From an uncultured Chloroflexia bacterium (GTDB lineage Bacteria > Chloroflexota > Limnocylindria > Limnocylindrales > CSP1-4): a DNA stretch of 64,000 bases. The stretch covers positions 384,001-448,000 of the forward strand of contig CAVVJT010000007.1 in the NCBI GenBank assembly GCA_963748625.1. The letters run 5' to 3'. The notes beneath the pieces are model-generated. The model searched no databases, was not told the DNA's origin, and worked only from the letters and a program-made list of their open reading frames with translations. This document shows, piece by piece, positions 40,916-54,148 of this stretch; the first letter of the stretch is position 1, and the number at the start of each line of letters is the position of its first letter. The position numbers were made by a program, and so were the translations under genes.

Positions 40916-41058
40916 ACGCGCGGGGGTAGGAGATAGAGCGGACGGAAACGCGCCGGTGATCGCCGCGATGCGCGTTCAGGCTCGTGGTCCTTCGCTTCGG
41001 AGGTCTCCTGCGAGAGCCGGGGTCATTAGTCTGCCAGCACGTTCGCGGCGTGGGGCGA

Positions 41059-41953
41059 CTACTTCTTCGCCGGCCCAGGAAGTTCTCCTAGCCTTCGCAA
41101 CTCGCTACGGATGAGCCGCGTCAGCTCGCGCCGCAGGCGGACAGTCTGGCCAGCCTCGAACTCCAGCGCGTCGTTGTTCAGCGTGACGTCATTGAGGGTC
41201 AAGAGTCGAGTGCCGCTGCGCTCGAGTCGGTGCAGACCTGGCGAGCACCTCGGCCCTCGATCGCAGGGCGTCGCGAAGGCGAGGCCGGGCTCGAGGCGGT
41301 GCAGACGCTGGCGACGTGCCTGTGCTCGATCGCTCAAGGGCGCCGACGCGGCGATGCCCGCGCTCGAGTCGGTGAGACCTAGGCGATCGACTCACGCCCT
41401 CGAGTCGCGCAAGGGCGTCACGATGGCGATGCCCGCGCTCGAGTCGGTGCAGACCCTGGCGATGTCGACCTCGCCCTGAGTCGCTCAAGGGCGTCACGAC
41501 GGCGATCCGCGCACGAGATCGGTGCAGTCCTCGCGATGTCGACCTTCGCCCTCGAGTCGCCGAGGGCGTCGATGGCGATGGCCGGCGCTCGAGCGTTGAG
41601 ATCTCGGGCACGCCAGCATCCTCGAAGGTTGTCGAGTCCAACTCGACGCCCTCGGTGCGGAGCCAGGTCGTCGCTTTCCGCGACGAGCCCCGGCACGTCC
41701 GCCACCACGTGTCGCCACCGATCATCAACAACGCCAACCACCCGACAGGCCTTGGTCGCGTCGCTGATGTGGCGCATCTGGCTCGCCGCAGCGGCAACGG
41801 GTCGGCGGAGTCCGGCCCACCGACGGGCACGACCTCGAGAACGACCAGGCCTGCTGGCGTGTCGACGGCCAGGTCAAGCCTCAGCCCAGCGATATCGACC
41901 GACTTTGCCTCAATTCCGCGCATCGCCAGACGGCCGCTGATGGCGCCCGGCAA
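41059..41953 (-). CDS. Hypothetical protein: PD-(D/E)XK-like N-terminus plus 12-aa tandem repeats (frameshifted)
   Basis: N-terminal [23 protein letters not shown]; repeat block ([18 protein letters not shown]); C-terminal [33 protein letters not shown]...*. Confidence 0.5.
41216..41595. repeat. About 5 degenerate tandem copies of a ~72-78 nt unit
   Basis: gcgctcgagtcggtgcagacc..ggcgatgtcgacct..gccctcgagtcgc.caagggcgtc..gatggcgatgccc recurs near 41217, 41289, 41360, 41436 and 41510. Confidence 0.85.
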
Positions 41954-42007
41954 GTGCCGCTGCTACCTGAGAGTCCTTCTCCGGGGCCCGTAGCGCCGTT
42001 CGACCCT

Positions 42008-42690
42008 TCAGCTGCTCCTGCCATCCCGCGTCCGTTGGGTCTGGGTAGAAGATGCCCTCGATCGTGCATCGAGGTCCTCGACCGTCTCGACGACCGCCAC
42101 CAACTCGGAGCCTTGGGCCCCAAAGACGTACACGAGGTTGCGGGCAGCTGGAAGCGCCAGCTCCGGAACGCCCGGCGCATCCTCGTCCCGCTTGCTCTGA
42201 ATATCCTCAAGGAACGCGAGCAAGGTGAACTGCCGCGGCTGCCGTGGCGTCCAGCTCTGATACGGTGCCACTACGATGAGCTCGGCCTCGCGCAGCCCGC
42301 ATCGTTGTAGCCAGGTCGCGCCCGCCCTTGTGCGACACCTGCGTGCCGAGGCCGTGTGAGCCGCGAGCCAGTCCTGCGGCGCCGATCGACACCGCATCGC
42401 CCGTTACGCTCGTGTACCGCTCGGCGAATGTGACAGCGAGGTCGAGGGCGACAATGGCCTGACTGGCGTCGGCGACGGCGTCGCTCGGGTCGTCCTGGCG
42501 AGACCCGTGAAGGTCGCGAGGCGTCTTGGCGTCGGAGAGCGGTCCTACGCGTGGATGCGGACTCGAGTTTGCATTCGCTCCACCCTCGCGCGTGCGAGGA
42601 CGGCTCCGCGAGGCGAGCCTGTGGGCCAGCGATGAGGCGCGGCGATCGCCTGCTGATCGTCCTCCCAACTCGTCCGCGGCCATCATCATG
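42008..42690 (-). CDS. Hypothetical protein (frameshifted) immediately downstream of hsdR
   Basis: Protein-like fragments in two frames: [27 protein letters not shown] and [15 protein letters not shown]...[11 protein letters not shown]...[17 protein letters not shown]. Confidence 0.4.
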
Positions 42691-45600
42691 CCACGGCCCA
42701 CAAGCCGACAGCACCTCGGCCTGCTCGAGCACGAGTCTGCGTCGCCTTCTCCTGCTTGTCGGGCGGGTAGCCGTGCTTGCGCAGGATCCGCTTCACGATG
42801 ACGCGGAGCTGGGCGCGGACGTTCTCGCGGACGGTCCAGTCGATGGTGACGTTGGCGCGGACCTGCTCGGTGAGCTCGCGGGCGATCATCAGGAGCTGGT
42901 CGTCGCCCAGGACCGCGACCGCGCTGTCGTTGACCTCGAGCGCGTCGTAGAAGGCGAGCTCGTCGTCGGTGAGGCCGAGCTGCTCGCCGCGCGGCTGACG
43001 CCGCCCGCAGCTCCTTGGCGAGCGCGATCAGCTCCTCGATGACCTGCGCGGTCTCGATGGCGCGGTTCTGGTAGCGGCGGAGGGCCTGCTCGAGCAGGTC
43101 GGCGAAGGAGCGGGCCTGGACGACGTTGCGCCGGCCGCGGGACTTGATCTCGCCGGCGAGCAGCTTGCGCAGCAGCTCGACGGCGACGTTCCGCTGCGGC
43201 AGGCCGCGGACGTCGGCGAGGAACTCGTCGGACAGGATCGAGATGTCGGGCTTCTTGCAGGCCGGCCGCGGCGAAGATGTCGACGACCTCGTCCGACGCG
43301 ACCGAGCGGCTGACGATCTGGCGGATGGCGTGGTCGAGCTCCTCGTCGCTCTTCCGCTCGGTCGCGGCGCTCTTGGCGAGCACGGCGCGGACGGCCTGGA
43401 AGAAGCCGACGTCGTCGCGGATCTCGATCGCCTCGTCGGCCGGCACGGCGAGCGCGAACGCCGCCGACAGCTCGGTCACGACCTGGAGCAGCCGGGCCTT
43501 GCCGTCCTCCTGCGCGAGGATGTGCTCCTGCGCGAGCGGGAGCAGCGAGACCCGCTCGTCGGCCGGTCCCGGTCACCCACGCGCGACCGGTCGAAGCCGT
43601 GGAACAGGCCGCAGCAGATCTCGTACTTCTCGAGCATCAGCGCGACCGCCTCGCGCTGGTCGATCGCCGTCCGCCCGGTGCCGCCGCTCTCGGTGTAGGT
43701 CGCGAGCGCCTTGCGCAGCTCGTCGGCGAGGCCCAGGTAGTCGACGACGAGGCCGCCCGGCTTGTCGCGGAACACCCGGTTCACGCGGGCGATCGCCTGC
43801 ATCAGGCCGTGCCCGCGCATCGGCTTGTCGAGGTACATCGTGTGGAGCGACGGCGCGTCGAACCCGGTCAGCCACATGTCGCGCACGATGACGATGCGGA
43901 ACGGGTCGGCGGGATCGCGGAACCGGGCCGCGAGCGCCTCGCGCCGGCCCTTGTTGCGGATGTGCGGCTGCCAGTCGAGCGGGTCGGTGGCCGAGCCGGT
44001 CATCACGACCTTGAGCGCGCCGCCGGCGTCGTCGTCGACCGACCCAGTCCGGGCGCAGCAGCGCGATCTCGCGGTACAGGTCGACCGCGATCCGCCGGCT
44101 CATCGTGACGACCATCGCCTTGCCGTCCATGACCGCGAGCCGGTCCTCGAAGTGCGCGACGAGGTCCCGCGGCGACCAGGCGCATCCGGTGCTCGGAGCC
44201 GACCAGCGCCTCGAGCTGCGCCCAGCGGCTCTTGAGCTGCTCCTTGCGGTCGACCTCCTCGCCCTCGGTCACCTCGTCGAAGGCCGGGTCGATCAGCGGG
44301 CGCTCGTCCTCGCGCAGGGTGATCTTGGCGAGCCGGCTCTCGTAGAAGATCGGGACGGTCGCGCCGTCCTTGACGGCGCGCTCGATGTCGTAGATCGAGA
44401 TGTAGTCGCCGAACACCGAGCGGGTGTTGGCGTCGGTCGCCTCGATCGGGGTGCCGGTGAAGCCGATGAAGGACGCGCCCGGGAGCGCGTCGCGCAGGTG
44501 GCGGGCGAAGCCGTCGATGAAGTCGTACTGGCTGCGGTGCGCCTCGTCCGCGATCACGACGATGTTCCGGCGGTCGGAGAGGACCGGGTGCTGGTCGCCC
44601 TTCTCGTCGGGGAAGAACTTCTGGATGGTCGTGAACACGACGCCGCCCGAGCCGACCGAGAGCTTCTCGCGCAGGTCGTCGCGGTCGGTCGCCTGGACCG
44701 GGTCCTGGCGGAGCAGGTCGCGGCAGCGCGAGAACGTGCCGAAGAGCTGGTCGTCGAGGTCGTTGCGGTCGGTGAGGACGACGACCGTCGGGTTCGCCAT
44801 CGCGGGCTCGAGCACGATCCGGCCCGCGTAGAAGGCCATCGTGAGGCTCTTGCCGGAGCCCTGCGTGTGCCAGATCACACCGACGCGCCGGTCGCCGGCG
44901 TCGCCGCCCGGTCGGTCGGCGATCTCGTACCGGCCGAGCTCCTCGGCCGCCTTCGCGTGCGCGGCCCGCGGGGCGCCGCGCGCAGCGTCTCCTCGACGGC
45001 GGCGTTGACGGCGTGGAACTGGTGGTAGCCCGCGATCTTCTTCGCGATCGCGCCGCCGCCCGCGTCCTCGAACACGATGAAGTGGCGGACGCAGGTCGAG
45101 GAACCGGCGGTGCTCGAACACGCCCTCGAGCAGGACCCGGAGCGCCGGCATCGCCGGTCGGGGCGTCGGCCGCGCCGTCGATCGTGCGCCAGGGCTTGAA
45201 CCACTCCTTGCCGGCGCCGAGCGCGCCGATGCGCGCCTGCGTGCCGTCCGACACGACGAGGACCGCGTTCGTCCCGAACAGGGCCGGGATCTGCGCCTGG
45301 TACGTGCCGAGCTGGTTGAAGGCGGACCAGATGGTCGCCGCCTCGTCGGCCGGGTTCTTGAGCTCGATCACCGCGACCGGCAGGCCGTTGAGGAACAGGA
45401 CCACGTCGGGCCGGCGCTCCTGGCCGCCCTCGACGACCGTGAACTGGTTGACCGCGACCCAGTCGTTGGCCGCCGGGTGCTCGAAGTCGATGACGCGGGC
45501 CTGGGCCCCGGCGATCGAGCCGTCGGCGCGGCGGTACTCCACCGTCACGCCGTCGACGAGCATCCGGTGCAGCGCCCGGTTCCGCTCGAGCAGCGTCGGC

Positions 45601-45843
45601 AGCGCGACGCGGGTCAGCTTGCGGAAGGCCTCATCGACCGCCTCGGCCGGCAGGCCACGGGTTCAGGCGGGCGAGCGTCCGCCGGAGCCGGCCCTCGAGG
45701 ATGACGTCGCGGTACCCGGGATCGGACCGCTCCTCGCCGGGCGCTCCGACGGCGATCTCAGGACCGTGGGCGACGGACCAGCCGAGCCCGTGGAGCCAGG
45801 CAAGCGCTGCCTCCTCGACGATGGACTCGCTGAACGTCGTCAT
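42686..45843 (-). CDS. hsdR: Type I restriction endonuclease subunit R (multiple frameshifts)
   Basis: [16 protein letters not shown]; [20 protein letters not shown]; WHTQGSGKS; ADEAHRSQY; FTGTP; [10 protein letters not shown]; QAIARVNR; [10 protein letters not shown]. Confidence 0.95.
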
Positions 45844-46030
45844 CGACGGCAATCGCTTAACAAGATCGGCCCGCAATCGAGCACGAAATGGACGCTCTGT
45901 GCCGCCGCAGTCGACGATAGGCGGCCAGACGCTTGAATGAACTCATGCGGTCGGCACAGCCTCGGTCACTCTCAGAGGTGCCACCCGGATCGTGCGGCCA
46001 CTAGACATAGCCGCTACTATGCTGCACGTG

Positions 46031-46079
46031 GACTGGGGATTCCCGGTCGGCTGTGGGCCTCGACGGATTCGTCGGGGCC
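46031..46079 (-). ncRNA. Candidate DUF3800-associated structured RNA (twin hairpin)
   Basis: 8 nt after the DUF3800 stop: GGCCCCGACG-AATC-CGTCGAGGCC, a 7-nt linker, then GACCGGG-AATC-CCCAGTC. Both stems have an AATC loop and one C-A mismatch; no U-tract. Confidence 0.6.
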
Positions 46080-46087
46080 TTCTGCTT

Positions 46088-46830
46088 TCATGATGGGAAC
46101 ACCTTGAGTCCCCAGCCCGCCACCTTGCCACCGCGGCTCCGGCGGAGTTTGCGCTCGATCACGTCGTATGCGCGGTTGGGTTGCTGCGGGTCAAGCACAT
46201 GTCGCCCGATCGGCCGGGCGAGCAGATCTGCTACCTGGAGCCCGGGAACGTTGGCCGCCTTGGAAACAAAGCGAGCCTCAAGGTTGAGGGTCACGCCCCG
46301 GTAGTTCTGACGATCACAGACGCGCCGGAACTCGAGTTCGAGTGCGTCATCCTCGCGCTTGCCGCGCATTTCCAAGATGACCGGCGTCGGGGGATTGGTC
46401 GCCCCGTGCTGAGCAAGCCACAAGTACGTCCGCTCAAGTCCGAAGCCGAGAGCAGTCTCATACGGGTTCTCGGGCCAGTGGTACCGGTCGACCAGCAGGT
46501 CCTTGCGGATGACCGACGCGATCACAGTCATCTCCAGGATGTCGATCACGGCGGTCAGCTCGTCCATGAAGGCGGACTTGCGAGCTGGATCGCGAAGGAT
46601 GGAGAAGCTGCCCATGTCTTTGCGGATCTCACGCTCATGCAGCACAACCTGGTCATGACCGAAGTGGCGGAACTTGAACTCCGTGAGCATAGGCAGCACG
46701 GTGCGCGCGTAGTAGGTCTTCTCGAAGATGCAGAACGCGAGCACGAAGACCGGGTAGTGGGCATCGATTGAGGTCAGCCCATGGTCGCCGCTCTCGTCCA
46801 CGAAGACGATGTACTCCCCGCCGGCGTCAT
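46088..46830 (-). CDS. DUF3800 domain protein (RNase H-like fold)
   Basis: YIVFVDESGD, VVLHEREIRK, ILEMRGKREDDAL, GLQVADLLARPIG, WGLKVFP. The likely ATG at 46830 is out of frame with the body (probable indel). Confidence 0.88.
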
Positions 46831-46832
46831 CG

Positions 46833-47775
46833 TCAGAAGCCCAGGACCACGCGACGGAACTCGTCGGCCTGCTCACGCCCGCGTCGCGGATCTCGGAGGG
46901 CATCGAGGTAGATGCGCGTTGCAGCAGCCATCCACCGGCCCTGGTGGAGGCAGCGGAACTTGAGCCCGAAGTCACCTTCAGCCTGGACCAGGACGAGGTT
47001 GAACCCTTCCTCGGCCGACCGTGCGTCCAGGGCTTTGATCACGTCCCCAGGGCGAGAACTGGCCGCGACCCGGATCTGCGTGACGAGCGCGGACGTAAGG
47101 GCTGGGGCGAACAGTGCGGCGGCCGCCACCGCGGTGGCCGCGTAGGCGATCCCGGCCGAGTTGAGGCGCTCCGACGCCAGCGCGCTCAGGTCACCGCCCG
47201 GGCGCCCGAGCATGTATGCCGCCGTCCGCCGCGACTTCGGCTCGACATCCTCTTCGGCCCACAGGTCCAGCAACGCGGCCGGAGACAGGACCCTGCGGGT
47301 GTGGTCGGGCTCGTGCTCGGACGTACCGCGGGCCAGACGCCGGGCGCTCCTGCCGTACGCGCCATCTCGCCCACGCGCGCGCTCCGACGTGCCGAACGCG
47401 AGACGCGCATGGTCGTGCCCGGCAAGCTCCGGCACGAGCAGCGCGGCGTGCTGAAGTCACCGTGACGGCGGCCGAGTCAGCGGATCGCGGCGCCGCGCAG
47501 CGTGATGCGGTCGCCAGCGTCGAGTCGTCGGCGCCGACAGCTCACGTAGCGATCCGGCCTCGATGGCGGTCGTCGCGCGTCGCCGACCCGCGAGTCGCGC
47601 GGACTCAGCCTCGGCAGAGCGACGTCGGTGCGCTGGCCGGGCCCCATCGGTGCTGGTCTGTCCGGCGGGATGCTCCGCGCCGTCAGTCGGCCGAGCAGGC
47701 GCGTCGTAGCGCGAGTGAATCCGCGAGCGTTACGCGGACTCCGCCAACGATCGGACCTCAGCGGGCTCAGCACAG
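46833..47775 (-). CDS. AbiEi_2/DUF2186-like transcriptional regulator (type IV antitoxin-like); 5' part garbled
   Basis: PAALLDLWA, YAATAVAAA, EEGFNLVL, RIYLDALRDPRRGREQADEFR. The 5' boundary is approximate. Confidence 0.65.
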
Positions 47776-47779
47776 GGGC

Positions 47780-48945
47780 GGCGCTCGGTCCCAGTGACCG
47801 GCACCGCTGCCAGGCTCAGGTCGGTGGCACCAGAGCGACGCAGCTCGAGGCCGAGCCGGCGCGACTCGAAGCGGAGACGTGCTCGTTGATCGCAGAGACT
47901 CGTGAGGACGTTGGGAACTGCGCGTCAGGCCGACACGAAGGCGGTCATGTTGCGGCCGAGCGCGGCCCGGAAGCCCGTCGGGATCTGGGCAACTGCACCA
48001 ACCCGTCCGACGTTCGTGATCACACAGTCGCCCTCTCGGGCCTCGATCCGTGCAGTCCAGAGCGCGGTAGTCATCGTCCGCGACGAAGTACTGGTCGCTG
48101 GTATCCAGCATCCCGTGGTCGCCAATGTTCCCGAGATGAGAAGGGGAAGGCCGGCGACCTGCCGCTCGGGCTTCTTGGCGTGCAACAATCTACGACATCA
48201 GCGAGTGACCCCAGCTGCCGACCATCCACCCGGCGGGATCGGCCCAGATCGGACTCGGCCCAAGCCGGGAATTCGTCAGCCAATCGCGCCGGCAGGACCG
48301 GTTCCTGCCCATCCCCCTTGGCACGAACGGCGTCAAAGTCAACGAACCACGACTTGAAGAGCGCCCGCGCGGTCGCCTCGAGGGTCTCACTCACCCGCCG
48401 GTTCAGTTCGATCTTGTCGTCGAGCGCACCGAGGATGCCGCGATGCGACGCTGTTCGGTCGCAGCGACGGACGCGGCAGCCGAGCAGTCTGGCAAGATCG
48501 CTTGCTCGGATGCCAGAGGCACCTGCTCCCGTGTTGACGACAGACGCTCTCGGATTGCGGACCGCCGCCGCAGGACGACAGGAAGAAGTAGAAGTAGAAC
48601 AAGGGGTCCGCAATGGCCCGGTCGAGCCGCACCCGGATCACGTGCGACTCGAAGGACGACTGGTGCGGGGTCCCCCAAGAAGATCGAGCACTTGCCCGCT
48701 CCGGCCAAGACCAGCGATTGGCGTGCGAATAGCAGGTCGCCCGTCCGCAGGCCAAAGCGCGATTGCTTCCGGTTCCGTCGAGCGGAACAGCGATCCATGA
48801 CAACGTCGCGCAGGCGCCGATGGGCGAACAACGTCGCCCATGTTCACGCATCTTCGTGCCGGCGCCTCGTATTGCCGTCTCGGACGCGTTAGCCCGTTCC
48901 GGGAAGGCTCAAGACAGGCTCCCGAATTCCACGCCCGCTAGTCAC
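47780..48945 (-). CDS. hsdS: Type I R-M specificity subunit (many frameshifts; second TRD appears shortened)
   Basis: GDLLFAR, FESHVIRVR, GIRASDL, ILGALDDKIELNRRVSETLEATARALFKSWFVDF, GDCVITNVGRVG, FESRRL. Confidence 0.85.
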
Positions 48946-50489
48946 CGAAGCCGAGCCCCCGAAGGTTCGCCTCGATCAGCGCGTCGAAACGCTCTCCCTC
49001 GGCCACCTGCTCGCGCAGCGTCGCGGTCAGGCGGCGCATCTTGTCCTCGAACGGCTCGTCGTCCTCCTCGGCGTCGGCGGCCCCGACGTAGCGGCCGGGC
49101 GTGAGGACGTGGCCGTGGCCACGGATCTCGTCGAGCACGGCTGACTTGCAGAACCCGGCCTCGTCCACGTACTCGCTCGCACCCTCGTCGCCGCGCCACG
49201 CGTGGTACGTGGCGCGACGTGCGCGATCTCCTCGTCGGACAGCTCGCGGTGGGTCGGTCCACGAGCGAGCCGAGCTTGCGGGCGTCGAGAACAGCGTCTC
49301 GCCGCGGCGGTCGCGGTACGGCCGTCGCGCTTGTCGCGCGCGAGGAACCAGAGGCAGACCGGGATCTGGGTCGAGTAGAAGAGCTGGCCAGGCAGGGCGA
49401 CCATGCAGTCGACGAGGTCGGCTTCGACGATGTTCTTGCGGATCTCCCCCTCGCCGGACTGGGACGAGCTCATCGAGCCGTTGGCCAGCACGAAGCCCGC
49501 GATCCCGTCGGGCGCGAGGTGGTGGAGGAAGTGCTGGACCCAGGCGAAGTTGGCGTTGCCTGCCGGCGGCGTGCCGTACACCCAGCGCTTGTCGTCACGC
49601 AGGCAGGTCGCCGCGCCAGTCGCGAGTCGTTGAACGGCGGGTTGGCGAGGACGTAGTCGGCCTTAGGTCGGGTGGCGGTCGTTGTGGAAGGTGTCGCCGT
49701 GGCCGATCTGGGCGTCGATCCCACGGATGGCGAGGTTCATCTTCGCGATGCGCCAGGTCGTGTAGTTGGACTCCTGGCCGTAGATGCTGATGTCGCCGAT
49801 GCGCCCGGCGTGGCTCTCGATGAACCGCTCGCTCTGGACGAACATGCCGCCGCTGCCACAGCAGGGGTCGTAGACGCGGCCCTTGTACGGGGCGAGCATC
49901 TCGACGAGGACGCGGACGACGCGGGCGGGCGTGTAGAACTGGCCGCTCTGCTTGCCCTCGGCGCTCGCGAACTGGGCGAGGAAGTACTCGTAGACCCGAC
50001 CGAGCGTGTCCTTGGCCCGGTCGGCGGGGGCGCCGAGGGCGATGTCGCGACACGAGGTTGATGAGCTGGCCGAGGCGCTGCCTTGTCGAGGCCCGGGCGG
50101 GCGTAGTCGCGGGGCAGGACGCCCTTGAGGCTCGGGTTGTCGCGCTCGATGGCGTCCATCGCGTCGTCGACGAGCGTGCCGATGGTCGGCTGCGGCGCGG
50201 CGGCCTTGAGTGCGGTCCAGCGCGCTTCCTTGGGCACCCAGAAGATGCTGGCGGCGCGGTACTCGTCGGGGTCCTCGGGGTCGGCGCCGTTGGCGCGGTC
50301 GGCCTCGAGCTCGGCGTGCTTGGCCTCGAAGGCGTCGCTGATGTACTTGAGGAAGATCAGGCCCAGGACGACGTGCTTGTACTCGGCGGCGTCCATGTTG
50401 TTGCGGAGGGCGTCGGCGGCCTGCCAGAGCTTCGCCTCAAAGCCCAGATTGGTACCCGTCTCGGGCTTCGCTCGTGCTGTCCTGGCCAA
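48938..50489 (-). CDS. hsdM: Type I R-M N6-adenine methyltransferase subunit M (frameshifts)
   Basis: [29 protein letters not shown]; YDPCCGSGG; ANPPFN; NANFAW; LTPGRYVG; TTG start after GGGAGG. Confidence 0.95.
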
Positions 50490-50628
50490 GACCCCTCCCC
50501 GTGCCTGATCGGCTGCAGCCCGAGGGTAGCGACCGGTCGTCGGCCGCGCCGCGGACATCGGTAGCATGACGACGGCGTACTCGATGGCCCACGCGGAAGA
50601 GCGTTCGCCAGACCGCCTCGTCGGACGG

Positions 50629-51111
50629 CTACCCCTCGCGGCCTGCTCCCTCCATGGCTTGCCGAGCGGCTGCCAGGGTTGCGACTACGGCCGCACGTCG
50701 AGTCGGGGCGCGATTGAGCGACGACGGCGAGGGGTGGTATGTCGCGAGGCGCTCGATCCCATCGCCCATCGTGGATCGGCCCTCCAGAGCCGCGATCGTT
50801 GCCCGCACGTCGACGAGCTGGCGCGAGGCTGTCACCCCGAGGGCGACGAGCACCTGAGGACTGATCACGGACAACTCGATGTCAAGGTATGGGCGGCACG
50901 CGCGGATCTCGATCGGTGTCGGTCGCCGATCGGCAGGGGGTTGGCACTTCACCGTGTTCGTCACGTAGGCGTTGGCGCGGTCAAGCCCAGCCGCATTCAG
51001 CAGTCCGCCGAGCGACCGGCCGGCAGTTCCGACGAAGGGCACACCGACATGGTCCTCGCTGGCCACCCTGGACGCGATCTGCGCGGAGATCGGACGGGAC
51101 TCCGCGAGCAT
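50629..51111 (-). CDS. Uracil-DNA glycosylase superfamily (family 4-like); N-terminus uncertain
   Basis: [50 protein letters not shown]. Confidence 0.85.
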
Positions 51112-51139
51112 CGGCGGGGTGCGGGCGTCTCGATCAACC

Positions 51140-52068
51140 CGCTCCGTCCGGGCGGCTGGCGAGAGGATGTGATCAGTGGCGATGTCCCAATACGACGTGA
51201 ACAGGACCCGAAGGTCCTCTCCGTGGTCGCTGGTGATCATCTCCGAGTTCTGTCCGGAGTAGATCGCGGTCACATTGGGCACGTTGCGCGCGGATTCGCG
51301 GCCGAGGATAGCGGCCGTGCGTGGCTGACGTGCCGCGAGGCGTTCACGCGCCAGGCCGACCTGATGCCCTTGGCGGCAAGCTCCCGCCTCAAGTCGACGT
51401 ACTGCTTGCGCGCCTTCGGGCCAGAGTTGTCCGGGAGATCGAGGGAGAGGATGCGAATTCTCCGAAATCCTTCGCGCGTCCGCAGCGTCCAGCAGGGACT
51501 CGAACGCAACGGGCATGAAATGCTTGTCCAGCCACCAGATGAACTCGGAGCACTCCTCGAGGGCACGCCGGAGCCAGAGCTTATTGGAGTATGGAGTGTC
51601 CGGACTAACAAATACCGCGCGTGGTACCGGGTCGGTCGACGCAGGCCGACAGAGGATCTCAATGGCGCCGGACCGCTTGACGTACTTCACCATGCCGGCC
51701 GAATGCATAAGCATCAATAGCGACCCGAGCTTGCGGTCATTCAGTTCGTCCCCGAACCCCTGACTCCGCAGGGCCGTCTCGGCCGTAGCCCGACTGGCTG
51801 TCGACACGCCCGCCAACAGCTGACAGATTGCTGCTGCCGGCGGGTACTGTGCGAGGGCAGCACCGAGAACTGTCCGGGCAGCATCCGTCTCGCCCGTGAG
51901 GAACGTGAGGCGAAAGTAGTCCGCGCCGGCCGCCGTCAGAGTGGATTGCCCGTCGACCAACAGGAGTTCCTGAAGGAAGGCCACCGCCTCCGGATCCTGG
52001 GCGGTTCTGCGCTCGCCCAGAGCCTTGATCACCCCCTCATAGGCGACCCAGGACCTACTCGGGAGCAC
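51140..52068 (-). CDS. Helical/wHTH + PLD-like nuclease-fold protein (compensating frameshifts near 51.3-51.45 kb)
   Basis: PDTPYSNKLWLRRAL...IWWLDKHF...IRILS...THGR(x)ILG...FTSYWDIA resembles the DxxF / IRIL / H(D/G)R layout of PLD-like domains; GTG start overlaps the upstream stop. Confidence 0.55.
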
Positions 52069-52840
52069 CGTCACCGTCCGAGGCCAACTGCGACGCGAGG
52101 TTCTGCAGCTCCGACACAACCTTGCCGATCTGCGCGAAGTCGACAGCCTTGAGGGGGCTCGTCGAGAGGATTTCGAGGACAATCTCGCCAGATGCGATCG
52201 GCCACACCTGGCGAAGCACGGGCGGGGCCTGCGTGGGGCGCTCACGCCGGACAGCCGGCCCGGCTCCCACAGGCTCCGCTCCGCCGGACTCGAACGCGTC
52301 CGCCCCGACATCAGCGATCGGGCTGAAGATCACGTGGGTTGAGTCGGGCGCCGTCGCGATCCCAGCGGCGATCGCGCTAGCAACCAGAGACCTTGTGAAG
52401 TCGTCCCTCGCCGTGATCGAGACGCCGTGCGTGTGGACGGCGTTGTTGCCAAGAGCGGTCAGCTCGAGGGGCGTGTCCTTGGCCACATCCGCATAGGTCT
52501 TTGCGAACACTGCAGCCGAGAAGAAGGCCTTCTGAAGCGCTTCCTTCTCGCTGTCCTCGCTGGTGGGCAGTGCGATCGCCAGCCCGGTCGAAGTCAGAGA
52601 CAGCCGGTCACCCGTACCCGCGAGCACACCCCACTCCCGCATGGACGCAAGCTTCATCCGAAAGGGGCCGCTGTTGTCGGTCTTGTGGCCGAGGTAGGTT
52701 GCGATGGAGGCGGTGCTATGCGTCTTGCCGTACTTGCCGAGCTTCTTGAGAGCTTCCGAAGTGTCTGCCAGATTGAAGGTCGGAAACCCAACGCCGGGGC
52801 GACGCCGTGTCGAGAGGCCGACCGATGAAGGCTCAGTCAT
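52055..52840 (-). CDS. Winged-helix protein (DUF5343-like)
   Basis: FPTFNL...IATYLGH..NSGPFRMKLASMREWGVL...LSLTSTGLAIALP...ALQKAF pattern, a flexible linker and a small C-terminal domain. Confidence 0.6.
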   Translation of the reverse strand: MTEPSSVGLSTRRRPGVGFPTFNLADTSEALKKLGKYGKTHSTASIATYLGHKTDNSGPFRMKLASMREWGVLAGTGDRLSLTSTGLAIALPTSEDSEKEALQKAFFSAAVFAKTYADVAKDTPLELTALGNNAVHTHGVSITARDDFTRSLVASAIAAGIATAPDSTHVIFSPIADVGADAFESGGAEPVGAGPAVRRERPTQAPPVLRQVWPIASGEIVLEILSTSPLKAVDFAQIGKVVSELQNLASQLASDGDGAPE

Positions 52841-53080
52841 TCGTGTACTCCGAATCCTCAAGTGAGTTCGTTGAGTACATACCGTACTGTGCCGGACTCT
52901 CGCCGTCAACCCCCGGTAGCTCACCGAGATCGCCGGTGCGCTTCTGCCCGCCCGTTCTCCTGACCCGTCGAACCCGGGGGAGGGATGGCCGCCAGCGTGT
53001 GCGGACAGCTGTCACCGGGCATCCTGGAGCCCGTGCTCGCGGGCGCACCGGCGTAGGATGCGCGGCAAGGGGTGCTCGCG

Positions 53081-54148
53081 ATGCGCAAGACCGCCATCGT
53101 CGTCGTCGTGCTCGTGGGACTCATCGCGCTGCCGGGGCTGCTGGCCGGCCTCCTGCTGCTGTCGGGCACCGTCAAGGTGGGCGACCCGATGCTTGATCCC
53201 GCACCCACCGGGCCGACCGTGTCCGCAGCGCCATCGCCCGGAGCGGCATCGCCCGCCGCCGGGGATCCCGTCTTCGAGGCCGACATCGCCCGTGCGATCG
53301 AGTCTGCGCAAGCTGTTCGGCCTCCGGTCGGACGAGGCGTGGGTCCGCCAGGTGGCCGCGGACCCCATGGCCCGGATCTTCATGCTCGACTTCCCGATGA
53401 CCCGCGAGGAGGAGCGCGAGTTCGAGGCGCGCAGCAGCTCGACTTCGAGCAGATCGCCCAGGCGGCCCAGGCCTACGGCGACGAGCATCCGGACACGTTC
53501 GGCGGCGTCTGGATCGACCAGCAGCGCCAGACCGTGGTCGCCGCCTGGACCCGCGACGCGGAGCTCCACCGGATGGCCATCCTCGCGGACCTGCGCAGCT
53601 TCGGCCCGGTCGAGGCCCGGACGGTCGCCTACTCGGAACGGCAGCTCGCTGGCGCTCCAGGAGCGGATCGACGGGCCGGACTGGCTCCGGACGATCCCGG
53701 CGGCCTTCATGGGCAGCAGCACCGACATCATGGAGAACCGCGTGTGGCTGGGGATCTCGTCGGCGGTGCCGGACGCGGAGGCACGGATCCTCGACCACCT
53801 CGGCGTCGGGGCGGACATGCTCCAGGTGAGTCGGATGGCACCGGGGTCCTGCTCCAGGATCGCGGCACGATCCACATCCACGTCGTGCGGCCGGACGGCA
53901 AGGGGACGGGCGGCTTCGACTGGAACGTCGAGTGGACGCCGGACCGGCCCGGTGGCGGTGACTGCGGCGAGATGGTCGGCATCGCCATCCCGGACGACGG
54001 CCGCTTCGACCTCGCCTGCGCACCGGGCGGCTGGACCATCGCGATCCAGGAGCGCGGCGGCGACGACGGCTGGACCGACATCGGCACGGGCCACGTCGTG
54101 GTGCCCGAGGGCGGAGACGTGGACCTGGAGATCAGCGTCCAGCCCTGA
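53081..54148 (+). CDS. Membrane-anchored/secreted hypothetical protein (frameshifts)
   Basis: Hydrophobic N-terminus MRKTAIVVVVLVGLIALPG, Pro-rich linker, then FGLRSDEAWVR, TFGGVWIDQ and CGEMVG...LACAPGGW alternating between frames. Confidence 0.7.
   Translation: MRKTAIVVVVLVGLIALPGLLAGLLLLSGTVKVGDPMLDPAPTGPTVSAAPSPGAASPAAGDPVFEADIARAIESAQAVRPPVGRGVGPPGGRGPHGPDLHARLPDDPRGGARVRGAQQLDFEQIAQAAQAYGDEHPDTFGGVWIDQQRQTVVAAWTRDAELHRMAILADLRSFGPVEARTVAYSERQLAGAPGADRRAGLAPDDPGGLHGQQHRHHGEPRVAGDLVGGAGRGGTDPRPPRRRGGHAPGESDGTGVLLQDRGTIHIHVVRPDGKGTGGFDWNVEWTPDRPGGGDCGEMVGIAIPDDGRFDLACAPGGWTIAIQERGGDDGWTDIGTGHVVVPEGGDVDLEISVQP

What the first reader, a model, noticed from the sequence alone, without database searches (positions are those of the whole stretch)
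50629..52840. Candidate undescribed anti-phage module: winged-helix protein + PLD-like nuclease + uracil-DNA glycosylase at the head of a type I R-M operon
Seen: three tightly coupled minus-strand genes. The first two overlap (GTG at 52068 lies inside the upstream gene). They look more AT-rich than the host and sit ~140 nt upstream of hsdM. Gene 1 has a winged-helix pattern (LGH..NSGPF..KLAS...WGVL...LT..G). Gene 2 has a helical N-terminus and a C-terminal WLDKHF / IRIL / THGR layout. Gene 3 is a family-4-like UDG. Known: genes embedded in R-M loci are enriched for defence functions, PLD-fold nucleases act in defence (e.g. DISARM DrmC, BfiI), and UDG-fold proteins act on uracil or modified bases. 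Inference: a sensor-nuclease pair, possibly aimed at uracil-containing or modified phage DNA that escapes type I restriction. I do not recognise this trio as a named system.
Basis: partly seen in the sequence, partly recalled or inferred. Interest (0 to 1): 0.8.

Follow-up and report, generated by a model that had tools for sequence, protein, structure and literature searches.

The report
Winged-helix plus PLD-nuclease gene cassette
Two of the three flagged genes form a conserved, unnamed gene pair (a DNA-binding protein plus a likely nuclease) that travels as a small cassette among bacterial defence genes, while the third "gene" is only a broken leftover of a DNA-repair gene.

Summary
Partly right. 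Genes 1 and 2 are real, overlap by 14 nt, and are lower in GC (0.646) than the window (0.716). A gene-1-like protein lies just upstream of gene 2 in 25 of 26 public loci with room; the 26th was not tested separately. In two metagenome contigs of related strains, from two studies, the 1,871-nt cassette (51176-53046) is replaced by 121-142 nt.

Gene 1 models as a tandem winged-helix protein; its best fold matches are the FokI and N.BspD6I recognition domains and BrxA (Z 8-10). Gene 2 is winged-helix plus a PLD-fold domain (Nuc, Z 12.6). That domain has an Asp after strand 2 and an H-D-R motif, not the HxK motif. This MIT_C/"PB-PLD1" type is a predicted, untested nuclease. The same domain is fused to GmrSD_N, SNF2 and AAA_35 modules elsewhere.

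No member tested hits Pfam, NCBIfam, PADLOC 2.0 or PHROGs. PADLOC or restriction genes lie within 4.5 kb in 8 of 19 loci.

The "UDG" is not part of it. It is a 5'-truncated remnant, separated from gene 2 by a 117-nt fragment of an unrelated gene on the other strand, and no other locus has a UDG after gene 2. In this assembly gene 2 is broken by three frameshifts.

Most likely a candidate restriction-like defence pair; function untested.

The parts
52055..52840 (-). Gene 1: 261-aa protein with two tandem winged-helix units (about residues 20-90 and 95-172), a disordered linker (179-202) and a small beta-hairpin-plus-helix C-terminal domain (207-254).
   Evidence: ORF. 14 homologues besides itself; alignment A2 with invariant GH.T.NSGPF..K. 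AF2 model pLDDT 84.6. Fold matches: FokI 2fok_A Z 10.2 (176 aligned), N.BspD6I Z 9.7, BrxA Z 8.4.
51176..52068 (-). Gene 2: winged-helix N-terminal half plus an H-D-R-type PLD-fold C-terminal domain. In this assembly it is read in frame 0 (52068-51460), a second frame (51467-51342), a third (51328-51308), then frame 0 again (51309-51176). The natural stop is not identifiable.
   Evidence: Frames. 35 homologues; full-length ones are 304-328 aa. AF2 model of homologue P0014, pLDDT 90.6. TrmBL2 and PLD-superfamily fold matches.
51176..53046 (-). The cassette (gene 1, gene 2 and about 200 nt upstream of gene 1) that is present here and replaced by 121-142 other letters in related strains.
   Evidence: Contig joints 51175->53047 (run X1, depth 16) and 51176->53027 (run X3). 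GC 0.646.
51059..51175 (+). Fragment (about 117 nt, from the middle to C-terminal part) of an LLM/F420-dependent oxidoreductase gene, without either end.
   Evidence: 78-80% DNA identity to congeners G004 and G007. Translation matches their LLM ORFs. No close paralogue in the genome (best 42% aa).
50629..51058 (-). 5'-truncated family-4-like UDG remnant (about 143 codons). It keeps VKCQPP, ACRPYL and HPSP but lacks motif A and the N-terminal Cys pair. It has no start codon of its own.
   Evidence: Pfam UDG profile 20-136/141; TIGR00758 34-159/173, below cut-off. Junction at 51058|51059, where a related contig holds 1,708 further letters.
48941..50567 (-). hsdM of the neighbouring type I R-M operon, given as context. 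It is split over at least three ORF frames in this assembly.
   Evidence: HsdM_N and N6_Mtase pieces in three ORFs.
42689..45942 (-). hsdR of the same operon, given as context. It is split over several frames.
   Evidence: HSDR_N, SWI2_SNF2, T1R_D3-like; T1RH-like_C lies in four ORF pieces.

Best explanation
Window 51176-53046 holds a self-contained, horizontally moving two-gene cassette. It most likely encodes a restriction-like, DNA-targeting defence module that works without a methyltransferase of its own.

Gene 1 is a tandem winged-helix DNA-recognition or sensor subunit, built like the recognition domains of type IIS enzymes and like BrxA. Gene 2 is the effector. Its N-terminal winged-helix half holds DNA. 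Its C-terminal PLD-fold domain carries an Asp after strand 2 and an H-D-R motif before strand 5, with conserved Asn and Glu. This domain would cut or otherwise process the phosphodiester backbone, probably as a dimer in the way PLD nucleases work. The two genes are translationally coupled and probably act as one complex.

SHOWN: the genes, their conservation and adjacency, the folds, the motif, the cassette boundaries, the neighbours, and the absence from the libraries searched.
INFERRED: DNA as the target, nuclease chemistry, complex formation, and a defence role.

The adjacent UDG remnant and LLM fragment are debris of a rearrangement and have no part in it. In this assembly the gene-2 frameshifts are more likely sequencing errors than decay, but that is not settled.
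For: 1. Conserved pair. A gene-1-like sequence lies directly upstream of gene 2 on the same strand in 24 of 26 loci with at least 800 nt of room, by tblastn (7 genome and 19 metagenome loci). L039 duplicates L014. The L035 upstream ORF matches the gene-1 profile (hhalign probability 81%, E 1.2e-5). L034 has the same layout but was not tested separately.
2. Translational coupling. The ORFs overlap or abut in the window (14 nt) and in L010, L024, L025, L029 and L038.
3. Discrete cassette. Contigs of two runs from two studies join 51175/6 to 53027/47 without the pair. GC is 0.646 against 0.716.
4. Gene 2 fold. The AF2 model has pLDDT 90.6. The C-terminal domain (residues 151-310) matches Nuc at Z 12.6 and SauUSI at Z 12.3, and every entry listed is a PLD-superfamily fold. 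TrmBL2 is the top full-length Foldseek match.
5. Motif. D185, H255, D256, R257, G277 and E281 are invariant, and N267 and N270 nearly so, in 29 sequences. They lie after strand 179-184 and before strand 258-260. That is the signature described for PB-PLD1/MIT_C as a predicted nuclease site (PMC12065111, passages read).
6. Effector position. The same domain, with the same motifs, sits at the C-terminus of GmrSD_N/DUF262 proteins (3), SNF2 helicases (4), an AAA_35 ATPase and an ORF6N protein, among 37 longer relatives scanned.
7. Gene 1 fold. FokI recognition domain Z 10.2 over 176 residues, N.BspD6I 9.7, BrxA 8.4, BpuJI 7.4. Only 7 of 48,161 chains reach Z 8.
8. Neighbours. PADLOC hits at E<=1e-8, or R-M genes, lie within 4.5 kb in 8 of 19 loci: window, L008, L009, L010, L021, L022, L038, L042. 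Integrase, recombinase, transposase or phage genes occur in 9.
9. Rarity and patchiness. 0 of 400 other genomes sampled from the phylum hold it at E<=1e-10.
10. Precedent. PLD-wH fusions and PLD-plus-sensor END nucleases are modification-dependent restriction enzymes (PMC11037411 and PMC12191111, passages read).
Against: 1. No H-D-R-type PLD domain has a demonstrated nuclease activity. The paper that names the motif calls enzymatic activity a hypothesis. MITD1, the solved example, is titled there as a membrane-binding protein.
2. The canonical HxK(x)4D motif is absent.
3. The best full-length structural match, TrmBL2, is a non-catalytic DNA-binding protein.
4. Gene 1's fold matches are modest (Z 8-10), in a range the tool warns can be a common arrangement. 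Foldseek alone gave nothing better than E 0.016.
5. Four of 19 loci (L012, L029, L032, L041) show neither defence nor mobile genes nearby. Loci L009, L021 and L022 share a Fic neighbour and may be one lineage, so the counts are not independent.
6. In this window gene 2 carries three frameshifts and reads H-G-R instead of H-D-R, so this copy may be dead.
7. No experiment of any kind exists.
Confidence: 0.5

Rival explanations
1. The pair is a non-enzymatic DNA-binding module of mobile elements: a TrmB/TrmBL2-like regulator or chromatin-type protein plus a partner. The PLD-like domain would bind a ligand or phosphate rather than cut, and the pair would control or maintain the island it rides on.
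For: TrmBL2 is the top full-length Foldseek match, and TrmB chains match the C-terminal domain at Z 9.5-10.8. HxK is absent. Integrases or recombinases lie next to the pair in L008, L014/L023, L025, L010 and L021. No activity is known for H-D-R PLD domains.
Against: The polar H-D-R, Asp, Asn and Glu set is invariant across very different architectures. The domain takes the effector position behind GmrSD_N, SNF2 and AAA_35 modules, which is not where regulator ligand domains sit. No TrmB or Regulator_TrmB Pfam match appears in 29 members even at E<=5.
Confidence: 0.2
2. The pair is a toxin-antitoxin or abortive-infection module. The gene 2 PLD protein is a toxin held in check by the gene 1 protein and released on infection, rather than a restriction enzyme that tells foreign DNA from self DNA.
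For: Two small overlapping genes with the putative neutraliser first. No linked methyltransferase in most loci. PIN/antitoxin and Fic neighbours.
Against: Gene 1 (261-300 aa, two DNA-recognition-like wH units) is large for an antitoxin, and both proteins carry DNA-binding folds. Nothing here separates this reading from the main one except the mode of triggering.
Confidence: 0.15
3. One reading: gene 1, gene 2 and the UDG act together. A variant is a gene 2-UDG fusion in which the catalytically dead UDG part senses uracil or modified bases, as the dead EndoIII domain is proposed to do in END nucleases.
For: In the window as assembled, frame 0 runs without a stop from gene 2's C-terminal part through to the UDG stop; the genome's own gene call is this 479-aa ORF (P0060). 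A PLD nuclease plus an inactivated glycosylase sensor has a precedent (PMC12191111). A distant UDG lies two genes upstream of the pair in L014/L023.
Against: The linker is the antisense of an unrelated gene fragment. The UDG part lacks its first ~33 TIGR00758 profile positions (roughly 55-60 residues by comparison with this genome's full copy), including two of its four Fe-S cysteines by recalled family layout, so it is unlikely to fold. A related contig has one more C after 51114, which would put the UDG part out of frame with gene 2. No UDG follows gene 2 in any other locus. Related strains hold the UDG side without the pair. P0060 is this genome's own call and includes the wrong-frame middle, so it is not independent.
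Confidence: 0.04
4. Here the cassette and the R-M operon are decaying pseudogenes: the frameshifts are real, so nothing functional is encoded at this locus whatever the family does elsewhere.
For: Three frameshifts in gene 2, and hsdM and hsdR split over three and more frames, while flanking genes of 724 and 557 aa are intact. Truncated UDG and LLM genes lie next door.
Against: Between the shifts the amino-acid sequences stay well conserved. A second assembly of near-identical sequence (P0032, P0038) is shifted at other places. A short-read contig disagrees with the window by single-base indels at 50532 and 51114. All this is the pattern of long-read consensus errors.
Confidence: 0.2

Closest known systems
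PB-PLD1 / MIT_C-type PLD domain: the Menshen NsnC C-terminal variant, BrxL C-termini and human MITD1 (PMC12065111)
   Same: PLD fold. A conserved Asp/Glu after strand 2 and an H-D-R motif before strand 5. It occurs behind ParB/DUF262-type modules. MITD1 chains match at Z 10.1-10.2.
   Different: Here the domain follows winged-helix units in a roughly 310-aa stand-alone protein that is always paired with a second winged-helix protein. The Pfam MIT_C model hits only 1 of 29 members, at E 0.12. I did not compare it directly with a PB-PLD1 sequence.
PLD-wH type IV restriction endonucleases Aba4572I and CbaI (PMC11037411)
   Same: A winged-helix reader combined with a PLD-family nuclease domain. 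They are often near type I methyltransferases (17 cases in that paper).
   Different: Those are single chains with the order PLD then wH, and with HxD/E(x)4K-type catalytic residues. Here the order is wH then PLD, the motif is H-D-R, and there is an obligatory second gene.
Type IIS enzymes with a separate recognition module (FokI, N.BspD6I, BpuJI) and the PLD-type BfiI
   Same: Gene 1's two wH units superpose on the recognition domains: Z 10.2, 9.7 and 7.4 over 168-176 residues. A PLD-fold cleavage module sits on a different polypeptide segment.
   Different: No sequence similarity and no cognate methyltransferase. Recognition and cleavage are on two proteins. The Z values are modest.
TrmB / TrmBL2 archaeal regulators
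   Same: The same overall architecture, winged helix plus PLD-like domain; top full-length Foldseek match (E 7.7e-7).
   Different: 12-15% identity, rmsd 18-27 over the full length, no Pfam TrmB match. TrmB's PLD-like domain is described as a sugar-binding domain (entry title), and I am not aware that it carries the H-D-R set (recalled).
END nucleases: PLD nuclease plus inactive EndoIII/OGG sensor (PMC12191111)
   Same: A defence nuclease built from a PLD domain plus a DNA-reading module. It was likewise not recognised by PADLOC or DefenseFinder when found.
   Different: Single gene, N-terminal BfiI-like PLD with HxK, glycosylase-fold sensor.
Family 4 uracil-DNA glycosylase (TIGR00758, PF03167)
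   Same: The remnant at 50629-51058 aligns to the central and C-terminal core, with the HPS-type motif B.
   Different: It lacks the first ~33 profile positions and scores under the family cut-off. It is only 37-49% identical to any UDG of 40 relatives. The genome has three other UDG-superfamily genes.

Membership tests
PLD superfamily (fold) | Alpha/beta PLD fold of about 150 residues | tested here: met
   Model residues 151-310 against Nuc 1byr: Z 12.6, 143 aligned, rmsd 3.3. All 50 entries listed belong to the PLD superfamily.
PLD superfamily (canonical enzymes such as Nuc, BfiI, DrmC) | HxK(x)4D ... GSxN catalytic motif | tested here: not met
   The position holds T-H-D-R-W-(I/V)-(I/V) followed by A-(R/W)-N-(V/I)-P-N. 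There is no Lys and no conserved Asp at +5.
MIT_C / PB-PLD1 type of PLD domain | Conserved Asp/Glu after strand 2 and an H-D-R motif before strand 5 (as worded in PMC12065111) | tested here: met
   D185 follows strand 179-184. H255-D256-R257 precede strand 258-260. All are invariant in 29 sequences and kept in 17 of 18 diverse architectures (one has H-G-R). The window itself reads H-G-R inside the frameshifted stretch.
MIT_C / PB-PLD1 type of PLD domain | Match to the Pfam MIT_C model (PF16565) | tested here: not met
   1 of 29 members, at E 0.12. Structural match to MITD1 at Z 10.1-10.2.
TrmB family regulators | Match to the TrmB or Regulator_TrmB sequence models | tested here: not met
   No such Pfam hit in 29 members at E<=5. 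Only the fold and architecture are similar.
Type IIS recognition-domain / BrxA-like tandem winged helix (gene 1) | Two or three consecutive wH units superposable on the FokI, N.BspD6I or BrxA DNA-binding parts | tested here: inconclusive
   Z 10.2, 9.7 and 8.4 over 158-176 residues. Foldseek's best is E 0.016. No sequence-level match.
Family 4 UDG | Full-length match over the family cut-off, including motif A and the N-terminal Cys pair | tested here: not met
   TIGR00758 at 114.9 bits against a 125.3 cut-off, profile 34-159/173. Pfam profile 20-136/141.
Known or candidate defence systems of PADLOC-DB 2.0.0 | Match of either protein to any of the 5,027 models | tested here: not met
   0 families for the window's pieces at E<=1. 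0 families for 6 full-length gene-2 and 7 gene-1 family members at E<=0.1. Newer PADLOC or DefenseFinder releases could not be run.
Defence-island gene (guilt by association) | Known defence genes near most family members | tested here: inconclusive
   8 of 19 loci have R-M genes or PADLOC hits within 4.5 kb; 4 of 19 have neither defence nor mobile genes. The sample is small, partly related, and has no background control.

The most novel reading that the evidence does not exclude
The pair is a new kind of split restriction enzyme with no methyltransferase of its own. A FokI/BrxA-like tandem winged-helix subunit reads DNA, perhaps a modification or a foreign-DNA feature, and hands it to a partner whose H-D-R-type PLD domain is a true nuclease. 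That would be the first enzymatic activity shown for the MIT_C-type PLD site, the site shared with the C-termini of BrxL (BREX), some Menshen NsnC proteins and human MITD1.
Probability: 0.25. Interest if true: 0.7.

Novelty: new variant of a known kind. Interest (0 to 1): 0.5.

Why it matters
If the pair protects against phages or plasmids, it adds a compact two-gene system to the defence repertoire. It occurs mainly in Actinomycetota, which are under-sampled in defence screens. It would also give a small, tractable protein for testing whether the H-D-R variant of the PLD site is catalytic. The Menshen paper raises that question explicitly for BrxL and MITD1.

The check also carries a practical lesson. 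A run of three 'coupled genes' in a high-GC, indel-prone assembly can be one cassette plus gene debris read through for lack of stop codons.

Tried and rejected
- Complex prediction of gene 2 (A1) with its cognate-type gene 1 (A3) gave no verdict. It was accepted after queue-full answers. It counts neither way.
- Viral contigs held no relative of gene 2.
- Pfam, NCBIfam, PADLOC and PHROGs gave no family for gene 1 or gene 2.
- The profile search of gene 2 against PDB sequences gave only a chance-level row, E 1.4.
- Gene 1 against gene 2 by hhalign: probability 2.3%, E 0.021. The register is plausible (wing plus second wH), but common descent is not shown.
- No longer or fused forms of gene 1 were found; the tool notes this is weak evidence.
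- P0060 (479 aa, gene 2 plus UDG) first looked like an independent fusion. Its sequence is the window's own frame-0 ORF, including the wrong-frame middle. P0137 is a frameshift-ridden read-through of a gene 1-gene 2 locus. Both were dropped.
- I looked for shared synteny between the LLM genes of congeners and the window's flanks and found none, by blastn or tblastn. Where the fragment came from stays open.
- The scan listed only short, imperfect repeats, and no direct or inverted pair brackets the two cassette ends.
- The consensus promoter and terminator scan found 0 sites in 50400-53150.
- The earlier-findings index had nothing for this place or this protein.
- Public runs: four metagenome runs hold small shares (0.06-0.10) of the stretch. 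No contig covers 51219-51700, so the frameshift cluster and the H-G-R/H-D-R question could not be resolved.
- Atlas leads (PLDc_2 at 0.77 for gene 2; DUF5343 at 0.87 for gene 1) are under the tool's 0.9 line and were used as leads only.
- Literature: four full-text searches, and passages from five papers, turned up no description of this gene pair. Supplementary tables of those papers, for example lists of embedded or candidate systems, were not seen and could name it.
Full report
WHAT IS AT THE COORDINATES

The window comes from a high-GC genome (window GC 0.716; 10 contigs). On the minus strand there is one clean ORF, gene 1: ATG 52840, stop 52055-52057, 261 aa.

Homologues begin MLPDRGW where the window has (V)LPSRSW.

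Gene 2 cannot be read in one frame. Its homology runs in frame 0 to about 51460 and in a second frame over 51467-51342 (IRILSLDLP...AWRV). It then runs in a third frame over 51328-51308 (SATHGRY) and in frame 0 again from 51309 to 51176 (ILGRESARNVPNV...YWDIAT).

IS THE ASSEMBLY AT FAULT?

hsdM and hsdR downstream are also split. HsdM_N and the two halves of N6_Mtase lie in three ORFs, and the T1RH-like_C domain of hsdR lies in four. Flanking genes of 724 aa (7TM-HD) and 557 aa are whole.

A second public assembly of near-identical sequence (P0032, P0038; 98-100% identity) is shifted at other positions. A metagenome contig differs from the window by single-base insertions after 50532 and 51114.

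I read these as consensus errors of an indel-prone assembly, concentrated in this island. I could not prove it, because no public contig covers 51219-51700.

THE 'UDG'

The third 'gene' matches Pfam UDG only over profile positions 20-136 of 141. It matches TIGR00758 only over 34-159 of 173, at 114.9 bits against a cut-off of 125.3. Similarity begins at ...[10 protein letters not shown], just after the place where family 4 enzymes carry GE(A/G)PG. That layout is recalled, and it is visible in this genome's own full copy, L015.

The sequence before that point is not UDG. Window 51059-51175 read on the + strand is a piece of an LLM/F420-type oxidoreductase gene. It is 78-80% identical in DNA to two congeners and matches their LLM ORFs. 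The frame-0 'peptide' that links gene 2 to the UDG core ([16 protein letters not shown]) is simply the antisense reading of that fragment.

The remnant is only 37-49% identical to any UDG in 40 relatives. The genome has three other UDG-superfamily genes.

The long 560-aa ORF, and the genome's own 479-aa gene call P0060, exist only because this GC-rich stretch has no stop codon in that frame.

THE PAIR IS A CASSETTE

A 2,980-nt contig of run X1 (depth 16) lies on window 50409-51058. It then holds 1,708 letters that the window lacks, then window 51059-51175, then 142 other letters, then window 53047 onward. A 230-nt contig of run X3, from another study, joins 51176 to 53027 with 121 letters between.

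So related strains, 92-98% identical over the shared parts, have the hsdM/UDG side and the LLM gene but no gene 1 or gene 2. The 1,871 nt from 51176 to 53046 are an insertion or replacement inside the LLM gene. Separately, the window has lost 1,708 nt that would have held the 5' parts of both the UDG and the LLM gene; that last point is inferred, since I could not read those letters.

The cassette's GC is 0.646. No repeat pair marks its ends.

If the extra C after 51114 is also the true state here, gene 2's frame does not run into the UDG part at all. I worked this out from the frames printed.

CONSERVATION AND CO-OCCURRENCE

The gene 2 N-terminal part finds 35 proteins, the full-length ones 304-328 aa, none with a Pfam domain. 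Gene 1 finds 14 besides itself. Five pairs of hits share the same longest-contig length.

In 7 genome loci (Terrabacter, Nocardioides, Microbacterium, Asanoa, Solirubrobacteraceae, a Gemmatimonadetes MAG and an Actinomycetota MAG) and 31 metagenome loci, 26 have at least 800 nt upstream of gene 2. Of these, 24 have a gene-1-like tblastn match there on the same strand. In L009 only the last ~44 residues match.

The L035 upstream 288-aa ORF matches the gene 1 profile (probability 81%, E 1.2e-5). L034 has the same layout but was not tested on its own. L039 is the same contig as L014.

The family is rare. It was found in 0 of 400 other genomes sampled from the phylum at E<=1e-10 and in none of the viral contigs. 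The 1.84-billion-protein library holds 79 representatives at E<=1e-30.

WHAT THE PROTEINS LOOK LIKE

Gene 2, modelled from homologue P0014 with 29 sequences (pLDDT 90.6), has a helical winged-helix N-terminal half and a C-terminal alpha/beta domain.
- Foldseek's best full-length match is TrmBL2 (E 7.7e-7), followed by FAM83, PLD3/4, Nuc, MITD1, Zucchini, NgoAVII and SauUSI.
- Re-alignment gives Nuc Z 12.6 (143 residues, rmsd 3.3), SauUSI 12.3 and NucT 12.1. Every entry listed is a PLD-superfamily fold.
- The PLD-fold claim therefore stands, but the motif is not HxK(x)4D.
- Invariant are D185 (after strand 179-184), H255-D256-R257 (before strand 258-260), G277 and E281; N267 and N270 are nearly invariant.
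- This is the signature a 2025 paper describes for 'PB-PLD1' and MIT_C: Asp/Glu after strand 2 and H-D-R before strand 5. It is also found at BrxL C-termini, and enzymatic activity is stated there as a hypothesis (PMC12065111, passages read).
- The Pfam MIT_C model does not recognise the family: 1 of 29 members, at E 0.12.

A profile search found the C-terminal domain alone in many other architectures. Of 37 longer relatives scanned, 4 carry SNF2 helicase domains, 3 GmrSD_N/DUF262, 1 AAA_35, 1 ORF6N and 1 TPR in front of it. The motifs SPxTPYSN, WxD, ILS, HDR(W/F), NVP, GQYSE and WW are kept.

Standing where GmrSD-type enzymes carry their nuclease is my strongest argument that the domain is an effector that cuts nucleic acid. 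The GmrSD layout is recalled.

The K186/H187 of WLDKHF are not conserved outside the family, so I give them no catalytic role.

Gene 1 (model pLDDT 84.6) has two winged-helix units, a disordered linker and a small hairpin-plus-helix domain. Foldseek gave only weak wHTH matches (best E 0.016). The search against all cluster representatives put these on top:
- FokI, Z 10.2, 176 residues
- N.BspD6I, Z 9.7
- an uncharacterised protein, 3bhw, Z 9.1
- BrxA, Z 8.4
- BpuJI, Z 7.4, also covers the whole tandem

Only 7 of 48,161 chains reach Z 8. These values are modest.

NEIGHBOURS

Within about 4.5 kb of the pair:
- window and L008: a type I R-M system (L008 also has an integrase)
- L022: an HsdR-like helicase further out (5.2 kb); within 4.5 kb, PDC-M05A/B and SoFic
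- L021: SoFic, a serine recombinase and a D5-type primase
- L009: PDC-S04 (Fic)
- L010: a TIR-TM gene overlapping the end of gene 2, with terminase-like, primase and recombinase genes
- L011 and L026: a CAP12/Pycsar-type TIR and Ymh
- L038: EcoRI R-M and PDC-S54
- L042: NaeI
- L025: an integrase and NOV_C
- L014/L023: an integrase, with a distant UDG beyond it
- L013: a PIN/antitoxin pair
- L034/L035: phage capsid genes

L012, L029, L032 and L041 show nothing of the kind.

Counting the window, 8 of 19 loci have R-M genes or PADLOC hits at E<=1e-8. I set aside the ShosA-model hit on a DprA gene in L010, and the cyclase/cNMP hits in L035, as probably housekeeping. The loci are few and partly related, and I have no background control.

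READING

The best-supported explanation is a mobile two-gene, restriction-like module: a DNA-reading winged-helix subunit and a winged-helix/PLD effector. It is related in logic to PLD-wH type IV enzymes (PMC11037411) and to END nucleases (PMC12191111). It uses the H-D-R type of PLD site and two polypeptides.

Folds, motif, adjacency, cassette borders and neighbours are shown. Target, chemistry, complex formation and the defence role are inferred.

Three rivals remain:
- A non-catalytic TrmB-like regulator of mobile elements is a serious rival.
- A toxin-antitoxin or abortive mode is a variant of the main reading.
- The UDG trio is very unlikely.

This copy may be inactive if the frameshifts are real.

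VERDICT

No library searched here names the pair (PADLOC-DB 2.0 of 2023, Pfam, NCBIfam, PHROGs). Four literature searches found no description of it, and supplementary lists were not seen.

I class it as a new variant of a known kind and score interest at 0.5.

Noticed in passing
window 46088-47456 (-): A DUF3800 gene (46088-46975, Pfam E 3.4e-15) and an ORF without any family (46836-47456) sit between hsdS and hsdR of the type I R-M operon. They are 'embedded' genes of the kind proposed elsewhere to be defence candidates. Neither has a PADLOC hit.
   Followed up: partly
window 42689-52068: Frameshifts are dense in the low-GC island: hsdR's T1RH-like_C domain lies in four ORF pieces, hsdM in three, gene 2 in four. 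Flanking genes of 724 and 557 aa are intact. This could reflect low or mixed coverage of a strain-variable island, or base-calling trouble on modified DNA.
   Followed up: partly
window 51058|51059: A related metagenome contig (run X1) has 1,708 extra letters exactly at the UDG/LLM junction. The window therefore carries a deletion that truncated both genes. In that strain a presumably whole UDG heads the type I R-M operon without the gene pair.
   Followed up: partly
L010:10899-11978 (+): In Nocardioides panacihumi a TIR-TM protein gene (PADLOC TIR-TM, E 2.3e-48) overlaps the end of the gene 2 homologue. This may be a three-gene variant of the module, or just a neighbouring system.
   Followed up: no
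proteins P0162, P0170, P0195, P0143, P0188, P0196, P0150, P0152: The H-D-R PLD domain forms a wide, Pfam-less domain family. It is fused behind GmrSD_N/DUF262, SNF2 helicase, AAA_35 and ORF6N (KilA-N-like) modules. 561 representatives score E<=1e-3.
   Followed up: partly
L022:2393-3666 and L038:2734-3966: The candidate systems PDC-M05A/B (E 1e-103 and 1e-71) and PDC-S54 (E 1e-139) lie next to the pair in two metagenome loci.
   Followed up: no
L014:2115-2900 and L023:2430-2810: A distant UDG-superfamily gene (Pfam E 1.7e-10) lies upstream of the integrase that precedes the pair in a Gemmatimonadetes lineage. It is not similar to the window's remnant at E<=1e-3. A second UDG near the pair may be chance, or may hint that such islands insert near UDG genes.
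   Followed up: partly
window 41000-42700: No Pfam match was found for any ORF of 100 aa or more between the end of hsdR and rpsU (ribosomal protein S21). No integrase or tRNA gene marks either end of the roughly 12-kb low-GC island, and there are 0 tRNAs in the whole window.
   Followed up: no
G000:C7:448940-449449 (just beyond the window's right end): A further, full-length UDG-superfamily gene (Pfam 88 bits, profile 1-135) lies about 14 kb from the remnant.
   Followed up: no
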